Assembly: GCA_021650895.1 (NCBI GenBank)
Contig: CP091278.1
Coordinates: 431,659-463,658 of the forward strand
DNA: 32,000 bases
Direction: 5' to 3'
Source of the DNA: Candidatus Jettenia sp.
GTDB taxonomy: Bacteria; Planctomycetota; Brocadiia; Brocadiales; Brocadiaceae
In this document: positions 3,941 to 21,718 of the stretch, piece after piece
How the letters are laid out: each line of letters begins with the position of its first letter
Position numbering within the stretch: the stretch's first letter is position 1
Translations under genes and position numbers: made by a program
The notes under the pieces: model-generated
What the model saw: only the letters and a program-made list of their open reading frames with translations
Database searches by the model: none
What the model was told of the DNA's origin: nothing

Positions 3941-4414
3941 ATGGCACAAGACATCTTAGCTGATTTAAGTACTTTGAATTTGAATACACCGATAGTGGAT
4001 ATTGAGGGTATTCGGACTATTATACCACATCGTTATGAAATGGAACAACTTAACGGTATTCTGAAATTCGATATGGAGCAGGGTATCATTGTAGGGTATA
4101 AAGATATTTCAAATAATGAATTTTGGGTACGCGGGCATATTCCTGGCAGGCCCCTCATGCCGGGGGTAATTATGTTGGAAGCAGCTGCGCAGTTATGCAC
4201 CTATTATTACAAACAAGCGACAAAGGACGATAGATTCCTTGGTTTTGGTGGTATAGATAAAGTCAAGTTTCGGGGAAAGGTCATTCCTGGTGATAGACTT
4301 ATTCTGATTGCAAAAAATAAGGAACTCCGCTCGCGAAGGGCTATCTTTGATACACAGGGAGTGGTAGACGGAAAGCTCGTTTTTGAGGGCATTATTATTG
4401 GTATGGTTGTTTAA
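3941..4414 (+). CDS. FabZ/FabA-like hot-dog-fold 3-hydroxyacyl-ACP dehydratase (orphan second copy), 157 aa
   Basis: IIPHRYEMEQL...FWVRGHIPGRPLMPGVIMLEAAAQL matches the FabZ signature (PHRxPF..., GHFPxxPxMPGV, EAxAQ) with the catalytic His and Glu present. It diverges from the canonical FabZ at 13975. Confidence 0.75.
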   Translation: MAQDILADLSTLNLNTPIVDIEGIRTIIPHRYEMEQLNGILKFDMEQGIIVGYKDISNNEFWVRGHIPGRPLMPGVIMLEAAAQLCTYYYKQATKDDRFLGFGGIDKVKFRGKVIPGDRLILIAKNKELRSRRAIFDTQGVVDGKLVFEGIIIGMVV

Positions 4415-6858: not shown

Positions 6859-8292
6859 TTATAGATGTATAGATTGATCAATAGCTGCATGGGCAGCCTC
6901 AAGAATAGCCTCTGAAAGGGTAGGGTGGGGGAATATCGTATTTGATAATTCAGTGATTGTTCCTTCAAGAACAGTAGTCAGCGACATACCCCACATGAAT
7001 TCACCGACATTTGGGCCTAGTGCATGTGTCCCTAATATCTCACCATATTTTTCATCAGTAATAATCTTTATGATCCCGTCTCCATATTCCCCTTCGATAA
7101 TGGCTTTGCTATTTGCAATAAGTGGAAATTTACCAACTTTTATTTTGTATCCTTTACTTTCTGCCTCTTCCTGAGTAAATCCTATACTAGCTACCTGTGG
7201 AGAGCAATACGTTACTCTTGGTATATTTTGATACGGTAGTGCGGTAGTTTTTTTCTCTGCAATGTGAGAAACAGCATGTAATCCTTGTTTTGATGCCTTA
7301 TGAGCAAGAAGTGGCGGACCTGTAATATCTCCGATTGCAAAGAGCCCTTTTTTGCTGGTTTCCATGGTCTCGTTAATCTGAAGATACTTCCCTTGGAAAT
7401 CCAATGACAAATTTTCAATCCCCAGATCTTGTAACGCAGGTGTTCTACCTAACGCGAGGAGTAGACAATCTGCCTCCAGATAATCTCTCTTTTCTCCTGG
7501 AGTAGGGGGGGGAGAGGTGCTGTTTTTCCTTTCTATCTTTACACGAACACCTTGTCGAACCTCGACTGTTTCTAAGGAGGTATCCGTTAAGGTTTCTATT
7601 CCTCTTTTGGTAAAAACTTTCCTTAAAATAGTACTTATCTCTTTATCTTCGCCAGGGAGGATCGTATCCATACGCTCGATGATTGTTACCTTAGTTCCAA
7701 GGATGTTAAATAGGTAAGCATATTCTACACCAACGGCGCCTCCACCTGCAATAATCATGGATTTAGGAATTTCTTCCAAGAGCAATATATCATCGCTGGT
7801 AAATACAAATTTGCCATCATGAGGAATTTCTTTTGGTATGAAAGGTGTTGATCCCGTAGCAAGAATAATATTCTTCGCAGTTATTGTATCAATGTCTGTT
7901 TCATTTTTTTCAATCAATATCTCGTGTAAAGATGTGAGCCGCCCTTTACCTTTAATAACGTTCACACCATTCTTCTTGAGGAGGAACTGTACCCCCTGGA
8001 ATAACCGTTTAACTACCGATTCTTTACGCCGGTGAAATTGTGGGTAATTAATACCTAATCTATCAGCGATAATTCCATATTCAGTTGCTTTCGTAAATTT
8101 ACTGTAAAGGTCTGCGGAATGGAGAAGTGCTTTTGTTGGGATACACCCCTGGTGCAAGCAAACACCACCAACCTTATCCTTCTCAATAAGAGCTGTTTTT
8201 AATCCTAACTGAGCAGCTTTAATAGCAGCTACATAGCCGCCTGGTCCTCCACCGATAATCACAAGGTCATACGTAAATCTTTTTTCGGACAA
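6859..8292 (-). CDS. lpd: Dihydrolipoyl dehydrogenase (E3 component)
   Basis: GGGPGGYVAAIKAAQLG FAD motif, redox disulfide GGVCLHQGCIPTK, second Rossmann GGGAVGVEYA, C-terminal HPTLSE. TTG start at 8292. Confidence 0.9.
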   Translation of the reverse strand: MSEKRFTYDLVIIGGGPGGYVAAIKAAQLGLKTALIEKDKVGGVCLHQGCIPTKALLHSADLYSKFTKATEYGIIADRLGINYPQFHRRKESVVKRLFQGVQFLLKKNGVNVIKGKGRLTSLHEILIEKNETDIDTITAKNIILATGSTPFIPKEIPHDGKFVFTSDDILLLEEIPKSMIIAGGGAVGVEYAYLFNILGTKVTIIERMDTILPGEDKEISTILRKVFTKRGIETLTDTSLETVEVRQGVRVKIERKNSTSPPPTPGEKRDYLEADCLLLALGRTPALQDLGIENLSLDFQGKYLQINETMETSKKGLFAIGDITGPPLLAHKASKQGLHAVSHIAEKKTTALPYQNIPRVTYCSPQVASIGFTQEEAESKGYKIKVGKFPLIANSKAIIEGEYGDGIIKIITDEKYGEILGTHALGPNVGEFMWGMSLTTVLEGTITELSNTIFPHPTLSEAILEAAHAAIDQSIHL

Positions 8293-8421
8293 TTATCCTT
8301 CCTTTTTCCATGTAAATAATATAACAAATATAAGTGCAACAGCAACAATTACGATTGTTTTTGGACTAATATCCGGAATAACTGATTTTTCCATAGATAA
8401 AGATAGCAATTTACCGATCAT
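8293..8421 (-). CDS. Possible 42-aa single-pass membrane peptide (MIGKLLSLSMEKSVIPDISPKTIVIVAVALIFVILFTWKKEG) coupled to lpd
   Basis: Hand-translated. GGAGGT lies 9 nt upstream of the ATG at 8421. Its TAA (8295..8293) directly abuts the TTG start of lpd (8292). One clear hydrophobic helix. No family recognised. Confidence 0.4.
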   Translation of the reverse strand: MIGKLLSLSMEKSVIPDISPKTIVIVAVALIFVILFTWKKEG

Positions 8422-8517
8422 GATAGTATAACCTCCTTTTTCGGATTAAAGATTTACGAAATATTTTTTGTTTAGATACCCGTTACATACAGAAATCATA
8501 GATTCTCATTAATTATA

Positions 8518-8552
8518 AAGGCACATCAAAGATGTTGAGATTGATGTGCCTT
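8518..8552 (-). terminator. Hairpin terminator-like element after the radical SAM gene (end of the six-gene operon)
   Basis: AAGGCACATCAA-N11-TTGATGTGCCTT, a perfect 12-bp stem, about 27 nt after the stop at 8579. It is followed on the minus strand by TATAATTAAT, which is T/A-rich but not a clean U-tract. Confidence 0.5.
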
Positions 8553-8578
8553 GTAAATCAAGTTGAATAATCGCTTCG

Positions 8579-10039
8579 TTATGTGGTAACAGTTTCCATG
8601 ACAGAGTTTGAAACAGGTACTGTACCTGATTTGTAGCAGTCCTTATAATAATCACCTGAATCATATAATTCTTTCAAGTTCTGCAATACCTGCTCAAATA
8701 CTTGCTTCCAATCTGAGCCTACTCTAAATGCAAACATAGAATTTCGTGGATTTTTCGTTGTCTTAATAGAATTTCTGAAGCGTGTTCTTAAATTATCACC
8801 TGCATAAATATGATCATAAACATATTGCATACCATCGATAAAGTTTTCTAATGTCATATCTACAAAACGATGAACTACATGAGCAGTATCATAATATTGC
8901 CAATCCTCTGGATAATTCTTTCTGAAAATTCTTTTTTCCGAATCCAATCGTGCATAAAGCTGTGTTTTTGGGAAGGGGCAGTTAATACCGAAGGTAAGAA
9001 TATCAATATTATTTTCCAATATAAACTCGGTCATTCTTTTAAAGGAATCTTTATCATCTCCATCAGCCCCAAATACTACCGATCCCCAGACAACTAACCC
9101 TGCATTATGAATCTTCTGAATGCAGTCAAAATAACTATCAGTTCCCAGTTTAAGATTTACCCGTTTATTCATCTTTTGTAATACCGCTTCGTTGGTAGAT
9201 TCTATACCAATAAGCATGCCAAAATTACCACTTTTTGCCATATAATCCAGCGTTTCCGGGTCTTGAGAAATATTTAAGGCGGTGAATCCTAACCAATCTT
9301 TATGGATACCACGTTCGACCATACCCTTAAAGAGATCCCGTGCCCTTTCGTTTGATTTTTTACCGTGACCATAAAAATTGTCTTCTGCCAGCATTAAACC
9401 CTTATAATCTGTTGCTGCCATCTCATCGAGTACGTCTTCATAGGGTCTTTCTCTGAACTTTCTCCCCTGGAAAGTAGGCACACTACAGAAATCACAATAG
9501 TTGGGGCATCCTTTTGTTGTAACGATAGAAGAAAATTTATAGTTGTACTTTTTCTTCATCAATTCACGATTAGGATATACCTTTTTCATCAAACTTAAAG
9601 GGGGAAGCCCTCCCTGATAGGTCTTTTTCAGCTTTCCTTCTTCAAAATCTTTTATAACCTGAGGCCACACTTCTTCAGCTTCTCCTACAAAAACTGAATC
9701 AACATACTTTGCGGCCTCTTCTGGCATTACCGATGCATGTATTCCACCCATTATTACCGTCATACCCTTTTTTTTGCACGCTGTAGCAATCTTATAAGCC
9801 CTTGGAGACTGGTAGGTTACTGCTGTGATACATACAAGGTCTACGGGTTTAAAGGTAATTTCGTCTTTATCATCGATTGCCAGTTCAATATTTTCATCTA
9901 TAATATCAAATTCCCAATCACCTGGTGTAAGGGCAGCAATATAAGCAAGATTCAAAGGCATTTGGACAATTACTGTAATACTTTCTTCTCCATGCCTACC
10001 CGGTTTATGTGGATTGATCAACATCATTTTTTTACTCAT
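8579..10039 (-). CDS. B12-binding-domain radical SAM enzyme (class B radical SAM), ~486 aa
   Basis: N-terminal flavodoxin-like cobalamin-binding region followed by the radical SAM core TTKGCPNYCDFCSVP (CxxxCxxC). I prefer the ATG at 10039 (MSKKMMLINPH): GGAGG lies 8 nt upstream and it forms an ATGA overlap with the stop of the desaturase gene. Confidence 0.85.
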   Translation of the reverse strand: MSKKMMLINPHKPGRHGEESITVIVQMPLNLAYIAALTPGDWEFDIIDENIELAIDDKDEITFKPVDLVCITAVTYQSPRAYKIATACKKKGMTVIMGGIHASVMPEEAAKYVDSVFVGEAEEVWPQVIKDFEEGKLKKTYQGGLPPLSLMKKVYPNRELMKKKYNYKFSSIVTTKGCPNYCDFCSVPTFQGRKFRERPYEDVLDEMAATDYKGLMLAEDNFYGHGKKSNERARDLFKGMVERGIHKDWLGFTALNISQDPETLDYMAKSGNFGMLIGIESTNEAVLQKMNKRVNLKLGTDSYFDCIQKIHNAGLVVWGSVVFGADGDDKDSFKRMTEFILENNIDILTFGINCPFPKTQLYARLDSEKRIFRKNYPEDWQYYDTAHVVHRFVDMTLENFIDGMQYVYDHIYAGDNLRTRFRNSIKTTKNPRNSMFAFRVGSDWKQVFEQVLQNLKELYDSGDYYKDCYKSGTVPVSNSVMETVTT

Positions 10040-11499
10040 ATCATTTGCCTCCAATTCTCCATAATTAAATTAGCAACACTCCAACCCGAAGAGACCACAG
10101 CGGAAATTCCAGGGCCTGGTCTTGTCCAATGTCCAGCTAAATATAAATTGTCAACAGGCGTCTCATGTGGCAACCTATTTTCCCACATTTGATCTGCGGT
10201 AACCGCCCAACCGTAAGCGGCTCCATGGGTATTTAACGTGTAACGCTCCAGGGTTTTTGGAGTAGCCGCCTCTTTTACTTCGATATATTTTCTAATTTCA
10301 GGAAGGTATTTCTCCAATCTCTTTATCGTGTTTGCAATCATGTCTTCTTTAAAAGATTTCCAGTTTTTAACATCCTTGTATGCCTCCTCTTTCATGGAAA
10401 CAACTACTGAAATTATTTGTTTGTTTGATGGCGCAAGGGTTGGGCATATCTTTGTTGGAACTGATATATACATCCACTCGTCATCCAGATAACGACTATC
10501 TGTAGCAGTATGATAAAATCCTCTTTTTAGGCTCGTTAAATCTATGTTGCTTCCCAATCCTAGATATAAAAGAAAAAAAGAGCAACTCTCTTTCATTCCT
10601 TCAATTTTTTTAAGGAATGATACATCAATTTTATCTTTTAGTAACTCAAAAAAAGTTTGCCGAACATCAATATTTGAAACCACCAAGCCTGATACTATCT
10701 CTTTACCGTTTTGCAGTTTAACACCAATAACGGTTTTATTATTCAATAATATTTTTTCGGCTCTGGATGATAACATAACGTGTCCGCCAAAATCAATAAA
10801 TTTCTTAAAAATTGTATTAGCAAACTCTTGTGTACCGCCCACAGGGAAAAAGGCACCATCCTTGAGATAATTAATCATCATTTGACACATGGCAATCGCA
10901 GAGGCCTGAGTAGGGGGGAGTCCTATGTAACCCCATTGACCGGAAAGTACCATCTTGAGTTCTTCAGTATTAAAATAATCATGTAACATATCATGGTAGG
11001 TATGGTTTTTATATTTTTCGATAATTTGGCTTTTTTCATTATTGAATGTAGCACGATAGAGTTTTATAAAATCCTGGAAGAAATTTTTAATAGCATCTTT
11101 TTCTGAAGGGTAACGGTTTTGTAAGCGAGCAATATATTCATCCAGATCTGCGGGAATTTCAATGCTGAAGCCGGGGAATATCAGGTGATCCATAGGATCC
11201 AGAGGGTAGAAATCCATTTCAATCCCAAGTATTTTTAAACAGCGGCCGACAACACTCCACTTTCCACAACCTCCAATATGGTGAACTGCTGCATCAAAGG
11301 TAAAACCTTTTCTCTTAAAAGAAGTGCAATAGCCGCCAGGAATAGAATGCTGCTCTACCAGGAGAACCCTCTTTCCACTTTTGGCAAGAAAGGTACCACA
11401 AACTAAACCAGCAATGCCCGTACCAATAATAATTACATCATAATGAGGGTACAACAGATCATTTTTTGTGGATCGAATATAACCGGTGGAAGGCACCAT
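10036..11499 (-). CDS. FAD-dependent oxidoreductase of the phytoene desaturase (CrtI/CrtD-like) family, 487 aa
   Basis: N-terminal dinucleotide fold YDVIIIGTGIAGLVCGTFLAKSGKRVLLVEQ...PGGY, with size and C-terminal blocks typical of CrtI-family desaturases. Starts 3 nt after the stop of the KS-like gene. Confidence 0.8.
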   Translation of the reverse strand: MVPSTGYIRSTKNDLLYPHYDVIIIGTGIAGLVCGTFLAKSGKRVLLVEQHSIPGGYCTSFKRKGFTFDAAVHHIGGCGKWSVVGRCLKILGIEMDFYPLDPMDHLIFPGFSIEIPADLDEYIARLQNRYPSEKDAIKNFFQDFIKLYRATFNNEKSQIIEKYKNHTYHDMLHDYFNTEELKMVLSGQWGYIGLPPTQASAIAMCQMMINYLKDGAFFPVGGTQEFANTIFKKFIDFGGHVMLSSRAEKILLNNKTVIGVKLQNGKEIVSGLVVSNIDVRQTFFELLKDKIDVSFLKKIEGMKESCSFFLLYLGLGSNIDLTSLKRGFYHTATDSRYLDDEWMYISVPTKICPTLAPSNKQIISVVVSMKEEAYKDVKNWKSFKEDMIANTIKRLEKYLPEIRKYIEVKEAATPKTLERYTLNTHGAAYGWAVTADQMWENRLPHETPVDNLYLAGHWTRPGPGISAVVSSGWSVANLIMENWRQMI

Positions 11500-11502
11500 G
11501 AA

Positions 11503-12741
11503 TTATCTTTTGTATTTAGAGATAATGAGGGAAGAGTTATTGCCTAATCGTGAGAAGGAATTTATGAGAATGTTCTTGGCTGGTAAAGTACTTTTCTGGG
11601 TCACATAACTTAGGTCACAATTCTCGTCTCGTTCCTTATAATTAATGGTAGGTGGAATTATGTGGGTGTTAACAGACATGACTGCAGCTACTGTTTGCAA
11701 TGCACCCGAAGCATCAAAACACTCGCCTGTCATAGATTTAATGGCTGTTACAGGGAGAAGATTTGCCCGCATACCAAAAACTTCTTTAATAACCTGGGTT
11801 TCCATCGCATCGCCGTATACCCCAGAATAAGCATTAGCAGATATGTAGGAGATGTCGTGGAGCGTGAGACCGGCATCCTGAATGGCGTTTATAACAGCTC
11901 TTCTGTTACCATCTATTTGATAATCCTTACTTATAGCCATTTTCGGCTCGAATGCTGTCCCATAACCTTTGACTTCTGCATAAATGTGTGCGTTCCTTTT
12001 CAGTGCATTTTCCAGAGTCTCAAGGACGACCAGGGCTGATGCTTCACCAATAACCATTCCGTTGCGTCTCTTATCAAAAGGTGCACAAATTTCCAGGGTT
12101 CCATAGGTGCTTCCCGATAATATTTTAGAATTATGCGACCCCCAAAATATATCATGAGTCAATCCATGTACACCACCTGCTAATACAGCTTTAACACGGC
12201 CCATACGGAGGAAATCAGAGGCATAGATGACCGCATCGATACTGCTGGTAACACCATTTGAAATGGTTGTATTCAGCCCGGTTGCCTTACAGAAAATCGA
12301 TGCCCGGCTTGCTGGTGCATTTAATACCGTATTAGGAAAGTCCATAGGGTTAACATAATTCGGACCTTCACGCAATGACTGGAAATCAAAAGAGCTAATG
12401 CTGTCTATGCTGCCATAGGTAGATCCCACAACAATACCCAGCTCTTCTTCGTTGTATGTAGTATTTTCAAGATTGGCATCTTTGATGGCAAGAACCGCTG
12501 CGGATGATACAAGAAGGGATGTACGGTCAATGTGGCGAATTCCCTTTTGTCCAAGGTAAACTTTTGCATCAAAATCAGAAATTTCTCCCGCTTGCTTGCT
12601 ATTAAAGTTACTTACATCAAATAAGGTGATAGGCTTTATGCCTGATACACCGTTGGTTAAATTTTCCCAGAAAACATCTTTACCTGTTCCAATAGGCGAG
12701 AGAACCGAAACACCCGTAATAACAATCCTCGTTTTTTCCAT
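11503..12741 (-). CDS. Beta-ketoacyl synthase-like protein lacking the Cys-His-His triad (KS-beta / chain-length-factor-like partner), ~412 aa
   Basis: Thiolase-fold KS homolog that aligns along its whole length with the adjacent FabF-like protein. Its catalytic positions read Val165 (NTTISNGVTSS), Asn (YISANAYSG) and Glu (KSMTGECFDASG). The ATG at 12741 shares one base with the upstream TGA (TGATG); an alternative TTG at 12744 gives a 4-nt overlap. Confidence 0.85.
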   Translation of the reverse strand: MEKTRIVITGVSVLSPIGTGKDVFWENLTNGVSGIKPITLFDVSNFNSKQAGEISDFDAKVYLGQKGIRHIDRTSLLVSSAAVLAIKDANLENTTYNEEELGIVVGSTYGSIDSISSFDFQSLREGPNYVNPMDFPNTVLNAPASRASIFCKATGLNTTISNGVTSSIDAVIYASDFLRMGRVKAVLAGGVHGLTHDIFWGSHNSKILSGSTYGTLEICAPFDKRRNGMVIGEASALVVLETLENALKRNAHIYAEVKGYGTAFEPKMAISKDYQIDGNRRAVINAIQDAGLTLHDISYISANAYSGVYGDAMETQVIKEVFGMRANLLPVTAIKSMTGECFDASGALQTVAAVMSVNTHIIPPTINYKERDENCDLSYVTQKSTLPAKNILINSFSRLGNNSSLIISKYKR

Positions 12742-13967
12742 CAAGAGCCTCTTTTAAATTTTTTCACAACTAAACAGCTGTTGTTACCACCAAATGCATG
12801 AGCATTATTAAGCGCAATGTTTACTTCCTGTTTTCTTGCAACGTTAGGAACATAATCCAGGTCGCATTCCGGATCGGGGGTCTCATAATTAATCGTAGGG
12901 GGGATAATATCATTTTGAACAACTAAAGCGCAAGTAATTGCCTCAATTGCGCTTGCAGCTCCCATGGTATGTCCTATCATTGATTTTATTGAACTGATAG
13001 CGAGATGTTTTGGTTTATCCCCAAACACCTTTTTGATTGAAATCGTTTCTGCTTTATCGTTTGCGGGTGTGCCTGTTCCGTGAGCACTGATGTACTGAAC
13101 ATCTTCAGGTCTTAAATCTGCATTTTTTAATGCCTTTTTCATTGCAGAGACGACACCTTCCCCGTCTGGATGGGGGATGGTTATATGATATGCATCGCAA
13201 CTGAGTCCATAACCGGTTATTTCCGCATAAATAGGGGCATTCCTCTGTAATGCATGATCAAGTGATTCTAGAAGGAGCATACCAGCTCCCTCACCAACCA
13301 TCATGCCTTTTCTGTTTTTATCAAAAGGCTGACATATTTCCGGAGCAATAGCGCCTAGTCGTGCAAATCCCGTATATGCAACCTTCGAAAAAGGGTCTGA
13401 ACCACCAGCGATCATCATGTCCACCCTTCCGAATTGAATTAAATCGTATGCATATCCGATTGCATAATTGCCGGCTGCACAGGCGGTGGGAATAATAGTA
13501 TTGGGACCTTTGAATCCAAATTCGATGGCAATATTGGCAGGGATATTATTACATGGATGCATTAAAAACAGATCGGGAGCAACTTTGTCTTCGCCATCTC
13601 TATGCCTTATATAATTGACTTTTTCCAGGATTTGTATTTCTCCCGCAGTCGTACCTACAGAAACACCTATCCTTTCCAGATTAATCGCATTCAAATCGAG
13701 CTGGGCGTCATTTAAGGCCAGCTTTGCGGCTGCAATTCCGAATTGTGAACCTTTACCAATTTTTTTAAGAACACCGTTCTTTATATAGTTTGAATAATCG
13801 AAGTTCTTAACTTCACATCCTTTATGGACTTTGTATTCAGAGGTATCAATACATGATACCTTATCGACACCTGATACCCCGGCAATGAGGGAATTCCAGA
13901 AAACATCCTTTCCTGAACCGATAGGGGTAATCATTCCTACGCCTGTTATAACTACGCGTTTATTCAT
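12741..13967 (-). CDS. fabF: Beta-ketoacyl-ACP synthase II-type condensing enzyme (active KS), 408 aa
   Basis: Complete catalytic set: PTACAAG (Cys), DAYHIT, SAHGTGT (His), [14 protein letters not shown] (Lys/His), C-terminal FGGNNS. Confidence 0.9.
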
Positions 13968-13974
13968 AATTTAT

Positions 13975-14427
13975 TTATAGTAATGCACTTTTTTCAGCAA
14001 TTCCAAAAGTTAAAGTAGCCTTAGCAACTGCTTTTTCATCAACTTTTACCGTTGCCTGAATAATAGCTCCTTTCGATACGATCTTTTCTACATTGATTTC
14101 TATAAGGAGTTGATCGCCAGGGAAGACGGGTTTTGTAAATCTTGCATTGCCAATTGATGCCAGTAAAAAAACCGTATCCTTACCGCTTTGTATAGGAGGA
14201 AGGCTTTTCCTGAATAGGATAATAGAAGCCTGTGCCATTGCCTCGATAATTAAAACGCCAGGCATAATAGCAAAGTCAGGGAAATGTCCGACAAAAACTG
14301 GCTCATTGCCAGAAACATTTTTTACACAAATAATTTTTTTCCCTTCTTCAAACTCAATAACTTTATCAATAAATATAAAAGGATATTTTTGAGGGAGAAG
14401 GGATCTGATTTCCTCAAAAGATATCAT
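13975..14427 (-). CDS. fabZ: 3-hydroxyacyl-ACP dehydratase FabZ, ~150 aa
   Basis: LLPQKYPFIFIDKV...FVGHFPDFAIMPGVLIIEAMAQAS is the canonical FabZ signature. Start is ambiguous: the track ORF begins at a TTG (14436), and I prefer the ATG at 14427. Confidence 0.9.
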   Translation of the reverse strand: MISFEEIRSLLPQKYPFIFIDKVIEFEEGKKIICVKNVSGNEPVFVGHFPDFAIMPGVLIIEAMAQASIILFRKSLPPIQSGKDTVFLLASIGNARFTKPVFPGDQLLIEINVEKIVSKGAIIQATVKVDEKAVAKATLTFGIAEKSALL

Positions 14428-14503
14428 ACTGTACAAATCTTCTCTTCTTGCATCATTGCCTAATTGTCCTGTAAATTATCATACTCTGTGTGTCAGATGT
14501 ATT

Positions 14504-14773
14504 TTAAGATGAAAGTTTTCCGCTTTCAGCTAAGACAGATTTTGTTAAATCAATCGTAGCTGCCAGCGATGTAATATCAACAAGCTTTTCTTCCGGAATT
14601 TGCACCTTAAATTTCTTTTCAATAAGAGCAAGAATTTCAAGGGCTAAAAGAGAGTCAATTTCAAGATCTTTAAAGAAATTTGCATCTCTTTTAGCCCAAA
14701 TTTCTTTTTCATCCAGCTCTGTAACCTCAGCCACAATAGCGGTTACACCTTTTTCAATCTCTTCTGCGTTCAA
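14504..14773 (-). CDS. Cluster-dedicated acyl carrier protein, 89 aa (track ORF is over-extended at the 5' end)
   Basis: Phosphopantetheine site LEIDSLLALE (DSL). TTG start at 14773 with AAGGAG 7 nt upstream (14786..14781). The 21 extra N-terminal codons of the track ORF lie in what looks like the 5' UTR. Confidence 0.85.
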   Translation of the reverse strand: MNAEEIEKGVTAIVAEVTELDEKEIWAKRDANFFKDLEIDSLLALEILALIEKKFKVQIPEEKLVDITSLAATIDLTKSVLAESGKLSS

Positions 14774-14850
14774 AATTATTCTCCTTATTAATAATCTGCC
14801 TAACAAACGACATAGCATCCACTCAGCATAATCCAAAAATAAGAAAGACC

Positions 14851-14879
14851 ATCGTATCAGACATAATTTACATTGTCAA
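14851..14879 (-). promoter_or_regulatory. sigma70-like promoter of the ACP-to-radical-SAM operon (TTGACA-17 nt-TACGAT)
   Basis: Minus-strand reading: TTGACA (14879..14874), a 17-nt spacer, then TACGAT (14856..14851). It lies about 80 nt upstream of the ACP start. Confidence 0.45.
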
Positions 14880-14920
14880 TAATATTCTTTAACTCGCCTG
14901 ATTATGTATAGGAATCGAAA

Positions 14921-14999
14921 TGTAGGGCAACCATTTAGGGTTGCTATCCATGATCCCACATATTCAAATGAGGAGGTAAGGATAAAACCCTGCCCTACA
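14921..14999 (+). repeat. REP/MITE-like structured repeat, copy A (full length, module 2 degenerate)
   Basis: TGTAGGGCAACCatttagGGTTGCTATCC...AAACCCTGCCCTACA. Terminal inverted repeat TGTAGGGCA/TGCCCTACA and an internal GCAACC/GGTTGC hairpin. Confidence 0.7.
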
Positions 15000-15146
15000 T
15001 GAAACAAATTTACAACGTCTGATAATATATATTATGTTACAATTCCTGATTGTTTTTCCTGGCACCTTGATTAAATTGATTAGATTCCTGAATTTTTGCC
15101 CTTTCTAGATTATTATCACAAAAGCGGATTCGATATAATACCATAT

Positions 15147-15758
15147 TTATTTGCTTTTTCTTGAAGCCATTCTCTCCTGTTTTGATTCCTGTTTCTTCAG
15201 TTTGCTCAGTTTGCCTAATGCACGGTATATTTGTCTTTCCAACATAGTCTCGTACTCAGACAGATCTTTCAGTTTGGTTTTATCCTCAGCTATTTTCAAT
15301 GCTTTTAACTGTTTCAACTCAACATTTGTCCTCTTTCTTGTCCTGAAAAATCCTTGCTCGTACTCCTGAATACAAGAAGCGGCGTAGTCCATTATCTGAC
15401 CTTCAATCTTCAGACATCGCTTCAGTCGCCACATACTCGAAATAATACGATCTGCAATAATCGATTCAATCTCATTTGATGGTTTTAATTCTCGTGTAAG
15501 GCGATTTCTTAACTCGTCAAGATCAGCTTCGTTTTCGCCATCTATTAATATTTCTTTACTAAAGATAGACTCTGTTATACTTTTGCTTTCCTTAGATTTC
15601 AACGGGTCTGAAGATGTTTTGGTCTTAACTTCCGTATCTTTCCCGTGTATTGTTTTCGATTGATCAACTATCGTATTCATTATCTTATCGATCTTTTCTT
15701 TATTAACATTATCCGGATGCTTTTCACGTAAAACGTCGTCTTTTAGAATTGTTGACAT
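15147..15758 (-). CDS. Hypothetical lysine/glutamate-rich, probably coiled-coil protein, 203 aa
   Basis: Intact ORF with AAAGGAAAAAG upstream of the ATG. No motif I recognise. The C-terminal half (RIISSMWRLKRCLKIEGQIMDY...LKQLKALKIAEDKTKLKDLSEYETMLERQIYRALGKLSKLKK) looks helical. Bracketed by repeat copies A and B. Confidence 0.5.
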   Translation of the reverse strand: MSTILKDDVLREKHPDNVNKEKIDKIMNTIVDQSKTIHGKDTEVKTKTSSDPLKSKESKSITESIFSKEILIDGENEADLDELRNRLTRELKPSNEIESIIADRIISSMWRLKRCLKIEGQIMDYAASCIQEYEQGFFRTRKRTNVELKQLKALKIAEDKTKLKDLSEYETMLERQIYRALGKLSKLKKQESKQERMASRKSK

Positions 15759-17495: not shown

Positions 17496-18140
17496 TTATT
17501 TTTTACTTCCAAAAATATAATCTGCATCTTTTGGTGTGAGTCCCCGATATAAATCGCGAACAAACTCCTGTGCCAAAGTGAGCGCATCCTCCAGAGTATC
17601 TTCCGTGCTGGGAATAGCAAGCCGTATCATGAAGCCCACCCTGTTTTTATTAAATAATGAAAAATATAACTCTTTTATTTTCTGTTTAGTCCAATCTACA
17701 ATGCCTTTATCAATACAAATCCAATAGATTAACAAAAAGCCTTCGGTATTTTTTTGAGCATAGAGGGCATGGGTTTTTAATGTACGACCTGCCAGATGAA
17801 ATTCCTGATCATAGAGCTCTCTTACTTTAAAGCCAGCTCCATGAGAGCAGATCTTTGGGTTATGAAAATTACCTGCATTCAGGATAGAGAAAAACAAATT
17901 TTTATCATGTGCATTTACATACCTGCGTTCGAGAATCTGACTGATAAAATTATATTTTTTATCTTCTAAATTCCATTCATCTCTTATATCAATACCTTGC
18001 CAACTATTCATGGTATAGGGGATTTCCAGGCGAGAAAAAACCTCCGAACTTGTATACTTAGTCCTGGGAAATAAAAAACAATAAACGAGAGCAAATGAAA
18101 TCCATGCCAAAGCTATGTAGGGCTTAAGATGTTCATGCAT
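17496..18140 (-). CDS. epsI: EpsI-family exosortase-associated protein, 214 aa
   Basis: N-terminal TM helix, then W-G, RRY, HNPKICSHGAGF, LIYWICI and GFMIRLAIPS blocks in the order typical of EpsI (DUF3485) proteins. Sits in an exosortase gene neighbourhood. The start overlaps the upstream gene by 28 nt. Confidence 0.7.
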   Translation of the reverse strand: MHEHLKPYIALAWISFALVYCFLFPRTKYTSSEVFSRLEIPYTMNSWQGIDIRDEWNLEDKKYNFISQILERRYVNAHDKNLFFSILNAGNFHNPKICSHGAGFKVRELYDQEFHLAGRTLKTHALYAQKNTEGFLLIYWICIDKGIVDWTKQKIKELYFSLFNKNRVGFMIRLAIPSTEDTLEDALTLAQEFVRDLYRGLTPKDADYIFGSKK

Positions 18141-19636
18141 TTTTGTCTATCGATTCGTGATTGTTCTTTAAGGTTCAGAAGTCCGTCAAACTGAAACCGT
18201 GTATCTATTTTGCTTCGTAATTCCTCTTCATCCAGTGCAAAATGAGGACTAATCTCTATAAGACCAATAACATTGCCCTGAGGATCCATGGGAATAGATA
18301 TACCGGCATTACGTAACCATCTCCCGAATAAATTAACTATATCCCGTTTTGCTGTAGCTGGCGAATCATCGCCTTCTGAATTTTTTACCGGTGAGAATTC
18401 TTCTTCCCGAAGAACCTCCATAACTACCCCCTGCTTTACATATCTGAGTATATCAAAGATAAAGCTCTCAAATTTAACAGCATTATTCTTATCAGGATTT
18501 ACCATATCTCCTTTCTCATTCAGACAGGACACTTTTTTGAAGGCTACATGGTACGGAAGAGAATTTTCCATTCGGTATACTTTTTCGAGAAAGTCAATAT
18601 GGATCATATGCACCCCAATACTTCCTGCATTATATTTCAGCATACCATTCCCATTTCTAGCATGCATATCCTCCTGGCTGAGTTCACTATATTCAGCAAT
18701 ATGGAGATGCCCGTCGATATATCCTACAATGCCTACCTTTTCTTCCGCATGGCGTTTTTTAACAACCTTTAACGATATCTCTGCTTTACTTCCTGTATGG
18801 TAACCAAGAAAAACCGGATCGGCCATCTTTATGAGCACGTTATCAATCTGATGATAAAAGATCTGTCTGACACCACGCCTCCTCATATCGGCAAGAATAC
18901 CCTTCTCCCTCAAAGCAATAATAACTCCTCCATGACCATTGGGACTCATAACAATATTTGACTTTGAATTCATCAACACCTTCCCTTGCAGGTCTACTAC
19001 AGGAAGCATACCTTGGGTAAAAAAGCATACCTGTCTGGCATCTAATCCAAAGAAGTGGTGTGATTGAAAAAAATCCTGCGTTGCCTGATTATTGGTCTCG
19101 CTGGTCATGATATACCAGGGAACTGGTATACCATATCGCTGCTGAAGGGCATGGATCTTTTCTGCATGAAGCTGAAAGATGCTTTTCCCACTGATCGGTG
19201 CAATGTGAATCATCCCTTTTGGTCCATTGCCTCCCAGTCTGGATCCATCTCCACCTGCGACGGTAAGGATGGCAGTCTCTCCTTTCCGGAGAGATGACTC
19301 CCCTAGCTGTTTTGCCGCCTCTGCAAGCTCCCTTTCAAGGGTATTCGATGGGACAGAGATAACGTGAGGAGGGAGTAAACTACCCTGAATGGCGGATGCT
19401 GTTTTCTGGAGATTCTGATGAAAGAGTTTCTCGATGAGCTGAAAATCTATTGAGGCGATCTGTGCCAGGAGAAGTTCTTTTTCCCCGGGCGATATTTCAT
19501 CCCACCATTTGAAGACGTGCTGCTGCTTTGCCTCAAAGGTGTTTTTGATGTGCTTCTTATAGTTTGGATACTCTTTTTCTAGTATTTTTCTATTCAATCT
19601 TAGTTTGTAAGGTGTAAGTTTTTTCTGAAAAGACAT
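18113..19636 (-). CDS. UDPGP type 1 family UDP-sugar (UDP-GlcNAc/UDP-hexose) pyrophosphorylase, eukaryote-like UAP/USP type, 507 aa
   Basis: Nucleotide-binding loop LTVAGGDGSRLGGNGPKGM, size and downstream blocks (YIMTS, PNGHGG) resemble UAP1/UDPGP enzymes. The ATG at 19636 overlaps the exosortase 3' end by 37 nt; an in-frame TTG at 19597 (2 nt after that stop) is an alternative start. Confidence 0.7.
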   Translation of the reverse strand: MSFQKKLTPYKLRLNRKILEKEYPNYKKHIKNTFEAKQQHVFKWWDEISPGEKELLLAQIASIDFQLIEKLFHQNLQKTASAIQGSLLPPHVISVPSNTLERELAEAAKQLGESSLRKGETAILTVAGGDGSRLGGNGPKGMIHIAPISGKSIFQLHAEKIHALQQRYGIPVPWYIMTSETNNQATQDFFQSHHFFGLDARQVCFFTQGMLPVVDLQGKVLMNSKSNIVMSPNGHGGVIIALREKGILADMRRRGVRQIFYHQIDNVLIKMADPVFLGYHTGSKAEISLKVVKKRHAEEKVGIVGYIDGHLHIAEYSELSQEDMHARNGNGMLKYNAGSIGVHMIHIDFLEKVYRMENSLPYHVAFKKVSCLNEKGDMVNPDKNNAVKFESFIFDILRYVKQGVVMEVLREEEFSPVKNSEGDDSPATAKRDIVNLFGRWLRNAGISIPMDPQGNVIGLIEISPHFALDEEELRSKIDTRFQFDGLLNLKEQSRIDRQKCMNILSPT

Positions 19637-20424
19637 TCTAGGCCAATTAATCCTGATAGAATAATCATAAAGATAACAATTCCACTAAAATTATGAAAAA
19701 ATCCTTGTCCTGCCGCTTCACCAAAATAATAGGTTATGATACATAATGTTATTACGCGGATAAGATTCCCAAATAATGAAAGAGGAATAATAAAAGAGAC
19801 TAGCAAAGTTTTTTTGGGTAAACTTGCTTTGCTGAGATATACATAAACCAAAGCCAATGAGAACATAGTAATAAGGGAACGAAAACCACTGCAAGGCTGA
19901 CCCATAAACAGCTCATTACTGCCAATGGATAATAAAAGCCCTTCTCTGGTAATGGGGTAATCAAAAAGTCTTAAGATTACCTCGGTAGCAATAGTAATTC
20001 CGTAACGCATAGGTAAGGTAATGCTATCCACAATGCCGAGAGGAAGAGGAACAATAAGGATAAGATAGAAAATGGGAAAAGATAATATTCTTGTTATGCT
20101 CAATCCGTAAAGATAGCGGATTAACCCGTATAATACAGGAAGTAGTGAAAGTGTTGTAATGAATATATAATTTTGGTGCTTCCCAAAAATAAACATGAGG
20201 ATACCCATTAAAAAAATGAAAAGACCAAAAAAATTATTATCAGGTTTAATCTTTTTAAGATGTTCCCTCAGGCTTGTATGTTTACGCCACACAAGCCAAA
20301 AGAATATTGGCAGAATAAAGTAAGCATGGGTATAATCGGAAGCCATCCACTTTGATCGGTACAGTACATAGATAACGGTGGCATACAGAGATGCTGTTAG
20401 TATCCAAACAAGATAATGAACCAT
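19600..20424 (-). CDS. Exosortase (polytopic membrane transpeptidase of the PEP-CTERM system), 274 aa
   Basis: Multi-pass membrane protein with the three hallmark blocks: QPCSGFRSL (Cys), FGNLIRVITL (Arg), FFHNFSG (His). Subfamily not assignable by eye. Confidence 0.85.
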   Translation of the reverse strand: MVHYLVWILTASLYATVIYVLYRSKWMASDYTHAYFILPIFFWLVWRKHTSLREHLKKIKPDNNFFGLFIFLMGILMFIFGKHQNYIFITTLSLLPVLYGLIRYLYGLSITRILSFPIFYLILIVPLPLGIVDSITLPMRYGITIATEVILRLFDYPITREGLLLSIGSNELFMGQPCSGFRSLITMFSLALVYVYLSKASLPKKTLLVSFIIPLSLFGNLIRVITLCIITYYFGEAAGQGFFHNFSGIVIFMIILSGLIGLECLFRKNLHLTN

Positions 20425-20495
20425 AGGAAACGTATATCCGAATCAGGGTATTTAGAGGATTATATAAGCATAAGATTTTGGGTTTTTATTGTTTT

Positions 20496-20551
20496 GTTTG
20501 TAGTGGCAATTTCCATATCGGAGAAGGCAATATAAAATTACCACTACAAAC
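20496..20551 (-). other. Intercistronic stem-loop between the PEP-CTERM mini-gene and the exosortase gene
   Basis: GTTTGTAGTGG (20496..20506) pairs perfectly with CCACTACAAAC (20541..20551). After a 1x1 mismatch, 5 more A-T pairs follow (20508..20512 with 20535..20539), leaving a 22-nt loop. No U-tract follows on the minus strand. Confidence 0.55.
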
Positions 20552-20564
20552 TAGGAGCGGTTTG

Positions 20565-20783
20565 TTAAGATTGCTTATCTAAATTCTTTGAACCTTTCTT
20601 AGCCCTCCATCGGCGAAAAACTGCCAGAGTAGCTCCCCCTGCCAAAAGGAGTAAATAACTCAATGGTTCCGGAGCATTCGGAGGCACTCCATCGGTAGCA
20701 CCATGACCTGCAAAAATATTACTACTCAATAGTACACCATGTAATAAAAGTATTGAAAACCATACCATTACATTTTTTTTCAT
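20565..20783 (-). CDS. Minimal PEP-CTERM protein, 72 aa (signal peptide + ~12-residue linker + PEP-CTERM sorting signal)
   Basis: MKKNVMVWFSILLLHGVLLSSNIFA|GHGATDGVPPNA|PEPLSYLLLLAGGATLAVFRRWRAKK GSKNLDKQS. PEP is encoded at 20672..20664, followed by a TM helix and an Arg-rich cluster. GGAGG lies 8 nt upstream of the ATG. Confidence 0.8.
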   Translation of the reverse strand: MKKNVMVWFSILLLHGVLLSSNIFAGHGATDGVPPNAPEPLSYLLLLAGGATLAVFRRWRAKKGSKNLDKQS

Positions 20784-21201: not shown

Positions 21202-21249
21202 CTGTAACTGTCACAATAGTGTGTTGTCACACTATTGTGACAGTTACAG
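21202..21249. repeat. Perfect 22-bp-arm palindrome with 4-nt centre (CTGTAACTGTCACAATAGTGTG-ttgt-CACACTATTGTGACAGTTACAG)
   Basis: All 22 pairs checked base by base (c21202-g21249 through g21223-c21228). It sits in a ~1-kb AT-rich stretch with no convincing genes. Confidence 0.9.
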
Positions 21250-21676: not shown

Positions 21677-21718
21677 TGCATAGGAATTCAACGTTGAGCT
21701 TTTGTATCGTTTCGTGTA

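What the first reader, a model, noticed from the sequence alone, without database searches (positions are those of the whole stretch)
8579..11499. ATGA-coupled CrtI-like desaturase and cobalamin radical SAM enzyme as the tailoring pair of a fatty-acyl cluster
The desaturase stop and the radical SAM start share ATGA (10039..10036), with GGAGG 8 nt upstream. This implies stoichiometric co-production. CrtI-family enzymes introduce conjugated double bonds into long hydrocarbon chains. Class B (B12) radical SAM enzymes catalyse methylation, ring contraction and C-C bond formation at unactivated carbons. Pairing them behind an ACP/KS/DH set suggests sequential desaturation and then radical-mediated C-C chemistry on an ACP- or lipid-bound chain. 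That substrate class is not known for either family. The assignment to cyclobutane/cyclohexane ring formation is inference only.
Basis: inference. Interest (0 to 1): 0.65.

Follow-up and report, generated by a model that had tools for sequence, protein, structure and literature searches.

The report
Known candidate ladderane-lipid gene pair
The two overlapping genes are the Jettenia copies of the phytoene-dehydrogenase-like enzyme and the B12 radical SAM enzyme of the known, still unproven candidate gene cluster for ladderane lipids in anammox bacteria; the same six-gene cluster also turned up in a few non-anammox genomes.

Summary
On the minus strand a CrtI-like flavoprotein gene (11499..10036) and a B12-binding radical SAM gene (10039..8579) share ATGA, and GGAGG lies 8 nt upstream. 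They close a compact operon: ACP, FabZ, KS, inactive KS, PDH, rSAM.

The window is about 99% identical to Candidatus Jettenia ecosi. The operon is the ortholog of Kuenenia Kuste3603-3608, known as "Cluster I". This has been the consensus candidate for ladderane (fused cyclobutane) lipid synthesis since 2009. Its chemistry was still unproven in August 2026.

Neither enzyme reaches the curated score of any characterised subfamily (HpnR, HpnJ, BchE, CrtI, CrtD, CrtISO). Their neighbours are always fatty-acid genes. Kuste3607 is reported not to replace CrtI.

New here, as far as I could find:
- Colinear orthologous clusters occur in non-anammox MAGs of 50-69% G+C: Acidobacteriota, Blastocatellia, "delta proteobacterium", Myxococcales and a Planctomycetota MAG whose anammox status I did not check.
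- In several of these (the "delta proteobacterium", Myxococcales and Planctomycetota MAGs) the cluster is fused to a second KS/CLF plus B12-rSAM module that matches the Kuste2802-2805 layout.

This conflicts with the published claim that the cluster is exclusive to ladderane producers.

The parts
8579..10039 (-). B12-binding (class B) radical SAM enzyme, 486 aa. It is the ortholog of Kuste3608 and belongs to rSAM clade A.
   Evidence: PF04055 scores 53 bits and PF02310 scores 44 bits, both above cut-off. The CxxxCxxC motif at C178/C182/C185 is invariant in 48 homologues. Identity is 99% to Ca. Jettenia ecosi and 87% to K. stuttgartiensis. The AF2 model has pLDDT 89.8, and its best PDB fold matches are AprD4, MgmA, TsrM, TokK, CysS and OxsB.
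10036..11499 (-). CrtI/phytoene-dehydrogenase-like FAD enzyme ('PDH'), 487 aa. It is the ortholog of Kuste3607.
   Evidence: It matches PF01593 and NAD_binding_8, with the motif GTGIAG. CrtI (4dgk) matches at E 2.7e-26 over the full length. It scores 170.8 on TIGR02734, below the cut-off of 238.1. The signature FDaAVHHIGg replaces the FDAGPTVIT of CrtI in all cluster-linked copies.
10036..10039 (-). ATGA, shared by the PDH stop codon and the rSAM start codon.
   Evidence: Read directly from the sequence. The same 4-nt overlap occurs in 9 of 68 related loci; most of the others have gaps of 1-16 nt.
10048..10052 (-). GGAGG Shine-Dalgarno sequence for the rSAM gene, 8 nt before the ATG. It lies inside the last PDH codons.
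   Evidence: Read directly from the sequence. It is conserved in nearly all loci.
11503..12744 (-). Catalytically dead FabF homologue (amxFabFmut, CLF-like). It is the ortholog of Kuste3606.
   Evidence: It carries the ketoacyl-synt N and C domains. Its catalytic triad is V/N/E instead of C/H/H. The published work shows a KS/CLF-like heterodimer (bioRxiv 10.64898/2026.05.19.726425).
12741..13967 (-). Active FabF homologue (amxFabF2). It is the ortholog of Kuste3605.
   Evidence: It scores 478.5 bits on the fabF model, and its triad is C163/H296/H333.
13975..14436 (-). FabZ-type 3-hydroxyacyl-ACP dehydratase (amxFabZ). It is the ortholog of Kuste3604.
   Evidence: It matches PF07977, and it scores 154 on NF000582, above the cut-off of 113.
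14504..14836 (-). Dedicated acyl carrier protein (amxACP), the ortholog of Kuste3603. The true start is probably inside this ORF.
   Evidence: It matches PF00550 at 52 bits. In Brocadia only about 93 residues are conserved.
8518..8552 (-). Perfect 12-bp hairpin 27 nt after the rSAM stop codon. It probably marks the end of the operon, although its U-tract is weak.
   Evidence: The fold gives -20.8 kcal/mol with z = -5.9, and 0 of 200 shuffles fold as well. The simple terminator scan did not call it.

Best explanation
The pair is the Jettenia ortholog of Kuste3607/Kuste3608, the last two genes of the six-gene 'Cluster I' operon (amxACP, amxFabZ, amxFabF2, amxFabFmut, PDH, B12-rSAM) that is the consensus candidate for ladderane lipid synthesis.

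Most likely mechanism (inferred, not shown). The KS/CLF-like heterodimer, amxFabZ and a borrowed ketoreductase build short enoyl or polyenoyl chains of about C4-C8 on the dedicated ACP. The CrtI-like flavoenzyme sets the number or geometry of the double bonds on that tethered chain, by dehydrogenation or by CrtISO-type isomerisation. The class B radical SAM enzyme uses a 5'-deoxyadenosyl radical to abstract a hydrogen and form C-C bonds, either closing a ring or joining two pieces. It works alongside related KS/CLF plus B12-rSAM modules, such as the Kuste2802-2805 type, rather than alone.

Shown here: gene identities, orthology, operon structure, conserved linkage, and the lack of membership in any characterised subfamily.

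Inferred: the substrate, the order of steps, and ring formation.
For: Orthology and colinearity hold in all sampled anammox genera.

Published work on the cluster:
- The cluster is highly expressed (PMC4790861; PMC10139942).
- amxFabZ and the KS/CLF pair prefer C6-C8 chains and the dedicated ACP.

- PDH and rSAM are adjacent, -4 to +16 nt apart, in about 68 loci across several phyla.
- Every rSAM of clade A or clade C whose neighbours were examined (L001, L004, L069, L071-L074, L084-L088 and the anammox Cluster I loci; the lone clade-A copy L066 has none) sits beside a KS with an intact triad and a partner with a lost triad.
- The anammox clade-C module also carries an OYE/2,4-dienoyl-reductase-like enzyme and an enoyl-CoA hydratase. 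This fits conjugated enoyl thioester intermediates.
- In the 'delta proteobacterium', Myxococcales and Planctomycetota MAGs the modules are fused into one cluster.
- The rSAM has a class B fold and an intact CxxxCxxC motif.
- Both enzymes fall below every curated subfamily cut-off.
- Kuste3607 does not make lycopene.
Against: - There is no biochemical or genetic evidence for either enzyme. Expressing the clusters in E. coli gave no ladderanes or polyunsaturated fatty acids, and the rSAM could not be produced.
- Polyunsaturated intermediates have never been detected in anammox bacteria. The labelling pattern of the ladder part fits no proposed route.
- Most characterised class B rSAMs are methyltransferases. 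The best structural match, AprD4, is a radical SAM diol dehydratase rather than a methyltransferase or a C-C bond-forming enzyme and, from my own knowledge, does not use cobalamin. The fold therefore does not predict C-C bond formation.
- Colinear orthologous clusters occur in Acidobacteriota, Blastocatellia and 'delta proteobacterium' MAGs, and without the PDH in a Myxococcales MAG. Ladderanes have never been reported from these groups.
- The Myxococcales cluster lacks the PDH.
Confidence: 0.5

Rival explanations
1. The rSAM is a cobalamin-dependent C-methyltransferase acting on the acyl chain, and the flavoenzyme desaturates or saturates next to the new carbon. The products would be methyl-branched or cyclopropyl fatty acids. 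These could be end products, or they could be precursors in the 'cyclopropane to ladderane' rearrangement route.
For: - Most solved class B rSAMs that match the model are methyltransferases: MgmA, TsrM, TokK and CysS.
- NCBIfam matches of similar, sub-threshold strength go to HpnR, PhpK and the MCR glutamine methylase.
- A cyclopropane-based route with a role for the rSAM has been proposed (PMC10139942).
- From my own knowledge, anammox bacteria and Acidobacteria are both known for mid-chain methyl-branched lipids. I did not test this here.
Against: - All methyltransferase family scores are four to eight times below their cut-offs.
- A dedicated ACP, KS/CLF pair and FabZ are more than a simple methylation should need.
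Confidence: 0.2
2. Cluster I does not make the ladder at all. It makes another specialised lipid or polyene shared with some Acidobacteriota, 'delta proteobacterium'/Myxococcales and Planctomycetota genomes, or only a common precursor such as the short linear part. The cyclobutane chemistry would be encoded elsewhere.
For: - Colinear orthologous clusters lie on long contigs of 50-69% G+C labelled Acidobacteriota, Blastocatellia, 'delta proteobacterium' and Planctomycetota, and, without the PDH, Myxococcales.
- Their clade-A rSAMs are sister to the anammox clade, with bootstrap 100 for the Blastocatellia, 'delta proteobacterium' and Myxococcales copies and 61 for the Acidobacteriota copies.
- amxFabZ and the KS/CLF pair prefer C6-C8 chains, which the authors relate to the linear part of the lipid.
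Against: - The cluster is present in every anammox genus sampled, and it is highly expressed in Kuenenia.
- Nothing is known about the lipids of the non-anammox MAGs, so they might make cyclobutane lipids too.
- The rSAM and PDH would have no obvious role in making a plain C6-C8 chain.
Confidence: 0.2
3. The pair are ordinary carotenoid or hopanoid enzymes (a phytoene desaturase plus a hopanoid or bacteriochlorophyll-type methylase or cyclase) that happen to lie next to fatty-acid genes.
For: - Public annotations use such names: 'phytoene dehydrogenase', 'prolycopene isomerase' and 'bacteriochlorophyllide d C-12(1)-methyltransferase'.
- CrtI is the best PDB sequence match of the flavoprotein.
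Against: - All curated scores are below cut-off: crtI_fam 170.8 against 238.1, CrtISO 177.9 against 586.9, HpnR 84 against 650, HpnJ 85 against 578, BchE 69 against 481.
- The neighbours are ACP, FabZ and KS genes in every locus and never carotenoid or hopanoid genes.
- Kuste3607 does not replace crtI in a lycopene pathway.
Confidence: 0.02

Closest known systems
Kuenenia stuttgartiensis 'Cluster I', Kuste3603-3608 (Rattray 2009, PMC2649909; Dietl 2023, PMC10139942; Granatino 2026, bioRxiv 10.64898/2026.05.19.726425)
   Same: The same six genes occur in the same order. The proteins are 73-91% identical to the Kuenenia loci. The second KS has the same dead triad. The PDH-to-rSAM junction is equally tight.
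   Different: Nothing essential differs; this is the Jettenia copy. In Kuenenia the PDH-to-rSAM junction is a 4-nt gap rather than an overlap.
Kuste2802-2805 module: ACP synthase, B12-rSAM, FabF, non-canonical FabB
   Same: It contains a paralogous B12-rSAM (clade C, about 55% identical) beside a KS plus dead-KS pair. In non-anammox genomes it is physically fused to the Cluster I genes.
   Different: It has no PDH. Instead it has an OYE/2,4-dienoyl-reductase-like protein and an enoyl-CoA hydratase. In a Brocadiaceae genome it lies about 110 kb from Cluster I. I matched it to Kuste2802-2805 by gene layout only, not by sequence.
Class B (cobalamin-dependent) radical SAM enzymes with solved structures: AprD4, MgmA, TsrM, TokK, CysS, OxsB
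   Same: It has an N-terminal Rossmann B12-type domain followed by a radical SAM barrel with CxxxCxxC. The Foldseek probability is 1.0 and the TM-score is 0.60-0.70.
   Different: Sequence identity is only 14-19%. The substrates are unrelated (aminoglycoside, protein, tryptophan, carbapenem, nucleoside). The fold does not reveal whether this enzyme methylates, rearranges or cyclises.
CrtI phytoene desaturase (4dgk), CrtD (4rep) and the CrtISO family
   Same: The FAD/amine-oxidase fold matches over the full length at E 2.7e-26. The FAD-binding GxGxxG motif is present.
   Different: It scores below the curated family cut-offs. The FDAGPTVIT segment of CrtI is replaced by an invariant FDaAVHHIGg. 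The ortholog has no phytoene desaturase activity.
KS/CLF systems of highly reducing type II polyketide synthases (Iga11/Iga12), and cispentacin AmcF/AmcE
   Same: An active KS is paired with an inactive partner, together with a FabZ-like enzyme and a dedicated ACP. The heterodimer has been shown for the anammox proteins. There are sub-threshold NCBIfam matches to AmcF (242 against a cut-off of 325) and AmcE (104 against 140).
   Different: None of those systems contains a B12-rSAM or a CrtI-like enzyme. The AmcF and AmcE matches are below cut-off and are only a lead.
Jaw5, the radical SAM cyclopropanase that acts iteratively with a polyketide synthase (review PMC13459092)
   Same: It is the only other case cited in which a radical SAM enzyme builds small rings on a growing ketoacyl chain. 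It is therefore a working analogy for ring formation during elongation.
   Different: From my own knowledge, Jaw5 is HemN-like rather than class B; I did not test this. It makes cyclopropanes using the SAM methyl carbon.

Membership tests
Class B (cobalamin-binding) radical SAM superfamily | CxxxCxxC motif that binds the [4Fe-4S] cluster | tested here: met
   C178, C182 and C185 (GCPNYCDFC) are invariant in 48 homologues. PF04055 scores 53.2, above the cut-off of 29.5.
Class B (cobalamin-binding) radical SAM superfamily | N-terminal B12-binding Rossmann domain and the overall class B fold | tested here: met
   PF02310 scores 44.2, above the cut-off of 32.1. The AF2 model (pLDDT 89.8) matches AprD4, MgmA, TsrM, TokK, CysS and OxsB with TM-scores of 0.60-0.70.
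Class B (cobalamin-binding) radical SAM superfamily | Actual binding and use of cobalamin | not testable with these tools
   The best fold match, AprD4, is a radical SAM diol dehydratase rather than a methyltransferase and, from my own knowledge, lacks cobalamin despite the domain. Binding therefore has to be measured.
Characterised class B subfamilies (HpnR, HpnJ, BchE, PhpK, MCR Gln methylase, TIGR04072 'rSAM_ladder_B12') | Score at or above the curated NCBIfam cut-off | tested here: not met
   Scores against cut-offs: TIGR04072 89.6 against 360; HpnJ 84.6 against 577.6; HpnR 84.2 against 650; PhpK 75.3 against 600; TIGR04014 71.9 against 360; BchE 68.7 against 481.
CrtI / phytoene desaturase family | FAD-binding fold of the amine-oxidase type | tested here: met
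   PF01593 scores 66.6, above the cut-off of 19.8, and NAD_binding_8 scores 55.3. CrtI (4dgk) matches at E 2.7e-26 over residues 23-482.
CrtI / phytoene desaturase family | Curated family score (TIGR02734 crtI_fam; CrtISO, CrtD and CrtO equivalogs) | tested here: not met
   Scores against cut-offs: crtI_fam 170.8 against 238.1; carot_isom 177.9 against 586.9; CrtD 124.5 against 549.7; CrtO 134 against 1000.
CrtI / phytoene desaturase family | Phytoene desaturase activity | not testable with these tools
   From the literature: kuste3607, a 73%-identical ortholog, did not restore lycopene synthesis when it replaced crtI in E. coli (PMC4790861).
Putative ladderane 'Cluster I' (Kuste3603-3608) | Six genes in the order ACP, FabZ, FabF2, FabFmut, PDH, B12-rSAM on one strand | tested here: met
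   Window ORFs. The order is colinear with about 60 anammox loci, including Kuenenia.
Putative ladderane 'Cluster I' (Kuste3603-3608) | The second FabF has lost its Cys-His-His triad | tested here: met
   The triad is V/N/E in the window, Brocadia and Kuenenia, and V/C/E in Scalindua. This agrees with the preprint.
Putative ladderane 'Cluster I' (Kuste3603-3608) | Restricted to ladderane-producing (anammox) bacteria, as claimed in PMC10139942 | tested here: not met
   Colinear clusters occur on contigs labelled Acidobacteriota (L001, L084), Blastocatellia (L072), 'delta proteobacterium' (L073, L074), Myxococcales (L085, without PDH) and Planctomycetota (L087). Their G+C is 50-69%, against 37-48% in anammox loci. 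This concerns the family's definition, not the window's membership.
Putative ladderane 'Cluster I' (Kuste3603-3608) | Makes ladderanes | not testable with these tools
   The literature has no experimental link up to August 2026.

The most novel reading that the evidence does not exclude
The PDH and B12-rSAM pair is not an anammox invention. It would be one module of a rare pathway, found in several phyla, that combines KS/CLF pairs with several paralogous B12-rSAMs (clades A, B and C). The pathway is intact as a single supercluster in some 'delta proteobacterium'/Myxococcales and Planctomycetota MAGs, with Cluster I-type copies also in Acidobacteriota and Blastocatellia, and is split into separate loci in anammox bacteria. 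On this reading the non-anammox carriers make ladderane-like or otherwise radical-cyclised fatty acids. Ladderane-type lipids would then not be an exclusive anammox biomarker, and the non-anammox enzymes could serve as alternative sources for reconstitution.
Probability: 0.2. Interest if true: 0.85.

Novelty: already known. Interest (0 to 1): 0.45.

Why it matters
How cells build ladderanes is a long-standing open problem. These are chains of fused cyclobutane rings, among the most strained natural products known. This gene pair is the leading candidate for the key steps.

The finding adds nothing to what has been published since 2009. The comparison made here suggests two practical handles:
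- Orthologous clusters exist outside anammox bacteria. This offers alternative enzyme sources for reconstitution, where the Kuenenia rSAM has so far failed to express. It also gives a test of whether the cluster is sufficient for ladderane synthesis.
- In those genomes Cluster I is fused to the Kuste2803-type module. The two sets should therefore be expressed together.

The result also cautions against treating the cluster, and perhaps ladderanes themselves, as strictly specific to anammox bacteria.

Tried and rejected
- **Rfam scan of the whole window:** no match, so no cobalamin riboswitch or other known RNA.
- **Promoter and terminator scan of 8200-15400:** counts were no higher than in shuffles. 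One TTGACA-17-TACGAT site at 14879..14851 lies upstream of the ACP gene, but it is not evidence by itself. The post-rSAM hairpin was missed because its U-tract is weak.
- **AF2 model of the PDH:** only pLDDT 63, from a shallow, anammox-only alignment. I therefore ran no fold search on it.
- **NCBIfam TIGR04072 'rSAM_ladder_B12':** the window rSAM, the fourth rSAM of the deltaproteobacterial supercluster and the extra rSAM upstream of the Anammoxibacter cluster all fail to reach it. I could not identify what that family corresponds to.
- **Search for a cultured carrier of the cluster:** every named relative is a metagenome-assembled genome.
- **antiSMASH-type 'ladderane BGC' reports in non-anammox bacteria** (PMC9902471, PMC11968836): the cenote report rests on 1-2 kb, 2-3-gene fragments with KS and ACP genes, and neither report describes this PDH-rSAM cluster. 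They do not anticipate the result here.
- **Carotenoid or hopanoid reading:** rejected.
- **First Biopython bootstrap run:** it timed out. I replaced it with a faster neighbour-joining bootstrap.


Full report
**1. Observation**

On the minus strand the sequence reads ...GAGAATTGGAGGCAAATGATATGAGT.... TGA at 10038..10036 ends a 487-aa ORF that starts at 11499. ATG at 10039..10037 starts a 486-aa ORF that ends at 8579. The two genes therefore share ATGA at 10039..10036. GGAGG lies at 10052..10048, 8 nt before the ATG.

The ORF listing offers a TTG start at 10054. All aligned homologues begin at the M(S/K)KK encoded from 10039, so ATG 10039 is the real start.

- The upstream protein is a flavoprotein. 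It matches PF01593 Amino_oxidase and NAD_binding_8 and carries GTGIAG.
- The downstream protein has a B12-binding domain (PF02310) and a radical SAM domain (PF04055) with GCPNYCDFC.

**2. Context in the window**

The pair closes a minus-strand operon:

| Gene | Coordinates |
|---|---|
| ACP | 14836..14504 |
| FabZ | 14436..13975 |
| FabF | 13967..12741 |
| second FabF, triad V/N/E instead of C/H/H | 12744..11503 |
| flavoprotein (PDH) | 11499..10036 |
| rSAM | 10039..8579 |

The dead triad of the second FabF was read. All junctions after the ACP gene are tight: 7 nt, a 1- or 4-nt overlap, 3 nt, and a 4-nt overlap. The ATGA is therefore part of a generally compact operon.

A perfect 12-bp hairpin at 8552..8518 follows the rSAM stop codon (-20.8 kcal/mol, z = -5.9). 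No Rfam family matches anywhere in the window.

The flanking genes are unrelated housekeeping and polysaccharide genes:
- downstream of the operon: dihydrolipoyl dehydrogenase, glucan phosphorylase, a HAD hydrolase, a second FabZ and ribosomal proteins;
- upstream of the operon: QueE/QueC, an exosortase and a polysaccharide cluster.

**3. Identity**

The rSAM is 99% identical to Candidatus Jettenia ecosi, 93-95% to Brocadia, 87% to Kuenenia stuttgartiensis and 77-82% to Scalindua. I ran tblastn with the six window proteins against 85 fetched loci. The same six genes occur in the same order in every anammox genus sampled.

This is the cluster Kuste3603-3608, called 'Cluster I' in the literature. 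It comprises amxACP, amxFabZ, amxFabF2, amxFabFmut, a phytoene-dehydrogenase homologue and a cobalamin-dependent radical SAM enzyme (PMC2649909; PMC10139942; bioRxiv 10.64898/2026.05.19.726425).

That is the hypothesis published for this cluster in 2009 and repeated since.

**4. State of knowledge**

- A 2026 review and a 2026 preprint both say that no enzyme has been linked experimentally to ladderane formation.
- kuste3607 did not restore lycopene synthesis when it replaced crtI.
- Expression of the candidate clusters in E. coli produced no ladderanes.
- The rSAM could not be produced heterologously.
- amxFabZ and the amxFabF2/amxFabFmut heterodimer prefer C6-C8 chains.

**5. Family placement**

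The rSAM falls below the curated NCBIfam cut-off of every family it touches:

| Family | Score | Cut-off |
|---|---|---|
| TIGR04072 | 89.6 | 360 |
| HpnJ | 84.6 | 578 |
| HpnR | 84.2 | 650 |
| BchE | 68.7 | 481 |

By sequence, only the radical SAM core matches solved structures. The best are MgmA (9ccb) at E 8e-13 and AprD4.

An AF2 model with pLDDT 89.8 matches AprD4, MgmA, TsrM, TokK, CysS and OxsB with TM-scores of 0.60-0.70. The protein is therefore a class B radical SAM enzyme of no characterised subfamily. The fold does not reveal whether it methylates, rearranges or cyclises.

A full phmmer scan of 1.84 billion representatives shows a discrete family. The scores run 685 bits, then 429, then 357, and then a continuum near 35-42% identity.

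The flavoprotein matches CrtI (4dgk) over its full length at E 2.7e-26, and also CrtD. It is below cut-off for crtI_fam (170.8 against 238.1), CrtISO, CrtD and CrtO. All cluster-linked copies share a signature that CrtI lacks. FDaAVHHIGg stands where CrtI has FDAGPTVIT, and LDPMD, QWGYxG, RGFY, GAAYGWA and GHWTxPGPG are also conserved. The AF2 model of this protein was poor (pLDDT 63), so I did not use it.

**6. Linkage of the pair**

In 68 loci the distance from the PDH stop codon to the rSAM start codon is -4 to +16 nt in nearly all. Nine loci have the 4-nt overlap. The Shine-Dalgarno sequence inside the last PDH codons is conserved. This supports co-transcription and probably coupled translation. 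It does not establish a fixed stoichiometry.

**7. Distribution outside anammox bacteria**

The genome scan and the contig look-ups found the same gene order on contigs that are not from Brocadiales:

| Loci | Record label | Contig | Cluster content |
|---|---|---|---|
| L001-L003 | Acidobacteria bacterium | up to 40 kb | six genes, colinear |
| L084 | Acidobacteriota | 381 kb | six genes, colinear |
| L072 | Blastocatellia | 60 kb | six genes, colinear |
| L073, L074 | 'delta proteobacterium' | 1.8 Mb and 382 kb | six genes, then further modules |
| L087 | Planctomycetota | 479 kb | six genes, then further modules |
| L085 | Myxococcales | 506 kb | colinear, but without the PDH |

Identities to the window proteins are 45-74% for the ACP, 42-57% for FabZ, 54-69% for the KS, 39-47% for the PDH and 55-63% for the rSAM. 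The loci have 50-69% G+C, against 37-48% in anammox loci.

A neighbour-joining tree with 100 bootstraps resolves three rSAM clades:
- **Clade A** holds the Cluster I enzymes. The non-anammox copies are sister to a monophyletic anammox group. Support is 100 for the Blastocatellia, 'delta proteobacterium' and Myxococcales copies and 61 for the Acidobacteriota copies.
- **Clade B** holds a lone paralogue of deep-branching Brocadiia and the second rSAM of the 'delta proteobacterium' and Myxococcales clusters (support 61).
- **Clade C** holds the rSAM that sits beside a KS pair (support 96).

In a Brocadiaceae genome the clade-C locus reads ACP synthase, rSAM, KS, KS, OYE/2,4-dienoyl-reductase-like, enoyl-CoA hydratase. 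It lies about 110 kb from that genome's Cluster I. This layout matches the published description of Kuste2802-2805. I matched it by layout only.

In L073 the modules are contiguous:
- first ACP, FabZ, KS, CLF, PDH and rSAM-A;
- then rSAM-B;
- then rSAM-C, KS and CLF;
- then an enoyl-CoA hydratase, an SDR and a fourth B12-rSAM.

L087 shows a shorter version.

Every KS pair beside these rSAMs has one partner with C-H-H and one with the triad lost. This holds in anammox and non-anammox genomes alike.

PMC10139942 states that the cluster is found exclusively in ladderane producers. The reports of 'ladderane BGCs' in other phyla that I could read do not describe this PDH-rSAM cluster, and the cenote calls rest on 1-2 kb fragments with KS and ACP genes. 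I found no paper in the library that describes these colinear clusters. My search was limited to that library.

**8. Mechanism**

What is shown:
- the gene identities;
- orthology to Cluster I;
- the operon structure;
- conserved linkage of the pair;
- the recurring unit of a KS/CLF pair plus a B12-rSAM;
- the lack of membership in any characterised subfamily.

What I infer as most likely (confidence 0.5) is the following. The KS/CLF pair, FabZ and a borrowed ketoreductase build short enoyl or polyenoyl chains on the dedicated ACP. The flavoenzyme adjusts the number or geometry of the double bonds. The rSAM abstracts a hydrogen and forms C-C bonds on the tethered chain, together with the paralogous modules.

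Several observations fit work on ACP-bound intermediates better than work on finished C20 lipids: the repeated KS/CLF-rSAM adjacency, the dienoyl-reductase-like and hydratase genes in module C, and the preference for short chains.

The rivals are:
- C-methylation leading to branched or cyclopropyl chains (0.2);
- a product that is not the ladder itself (0.2);
- ordinary carotenoid or hopanoid enzymes (0.02, contradicted).

**9. Verdict**

The interpretation re-derives a known, unproven hypothesis about a known cluster, so the novelty is 'already known'.

The problem itself remains important. The non-anammox clusters and the fusion of two of Rattray's candidate clusters are leads worth testing. 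The organism labels come from MAG record titles. The tree is distance-based. No lipid data exist for the non-anammox carriers.

Noticed in passing
window 14920-14929, 14991-15000, 18115, 21718, 23076, 23121, 23237, 24167, 30747: A dispersed REP-like hairpin element, roughly GTAGGGCA[AG][AG][CG]CTTTAG[GC][CT]TTGCC. The core ATGTAGGGCA has 9 matches at up to 1 mismatch, against 1.7 expected, and no shuffle out of 100 reached 9. Most copies fall between the long ORFs; those at 18115 and 23076 lie inside ORFs of the list. An inverted pair lies in the 310-nt region upstream of the ACP gene.
   Followed up: partly
L073 1-21434 (also L074, L085, L087): High-GC non-anammox MAGs carry a supercluster that joins the Cluster I genes to two further paralogous B12-rSAMs, a second KS/CLF pair, an enoyl-CoA hydratase, an SDR and a fourth B12-rSAM. 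L073 and L074 also have an upstream ACP, 3-hydroxyacyl-CoA dehydrogenase, ECH, KS and TetR block.
   Followed up: partly
L071 and L072 (same Blastocatellia contig DASRDY010000236.1): Two clade-A rSAM copies lie about 18 kb apart on one contig. One sits in a full Cluster I-like operon. The other follows a KS, CLF and clade-C rSAM.
   Followed up: no
L085 7751-11386: The Myxococcales cluster has ACP, FabZ, KS, CLF and then the rSAM directly, with no room for a PDH gene. The flavoenzyme is therefore not an obligatory neighbour.
   Followed up: no
window 3941-4414 (+): A second FabZ paralogue, about 30% identical to amxFabZ with a weak ApeI-like match, lies on the opposite strand a few kb downstream. 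A counterpart occupies the same relative position in most of the longer Brocadiaceae loci.
   Followed up: partly
window 6859-8292 (-): A dihydrolipoyl dehydrogenase gene directly follows the rSAM in nearly all Brocadiaceae-type loci (not detected in Loosdrechtia L025) but is absent from the Scalindua and deeper lineages. A strong hairpin separates it from the operon.
   Followed up: partly
window 10036-11499 (-), residues 68-79: The PDH signature FDaAVHHIGg stands where CrtI has FDAGPTVIT. It is conserved in anammox and non-anammox cluster copies. Its two histidines, and a cysteine in many copies, could be catalytic.
   Followed up: partly
window 15147-15758 (-): A 203-aa Lys/Glu-rich ORF just upstream of the operon has no Pfam match.
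   Followed up: no
window 17496-31981: An exosortase (EpsH) and a DUF3485 gene are followed by a polysaccharide cluster. The cluster has three copies of a two-domain C-methyltransferase (21823-23109, 24489-25691, and a partial copy at 31733-31981), a sulfotransferase and a PIG-L deacetylase.
   Followed up: no
L060 1899-2930 and L062 2229-3287: The Anammoxibacter loci carry an extra, distantly related B12-rSAM (21-24% identical; best sub-threshold match BchE, tested on the L060 copy) a few kb upstream of Cluster I.
   Followed up: partly
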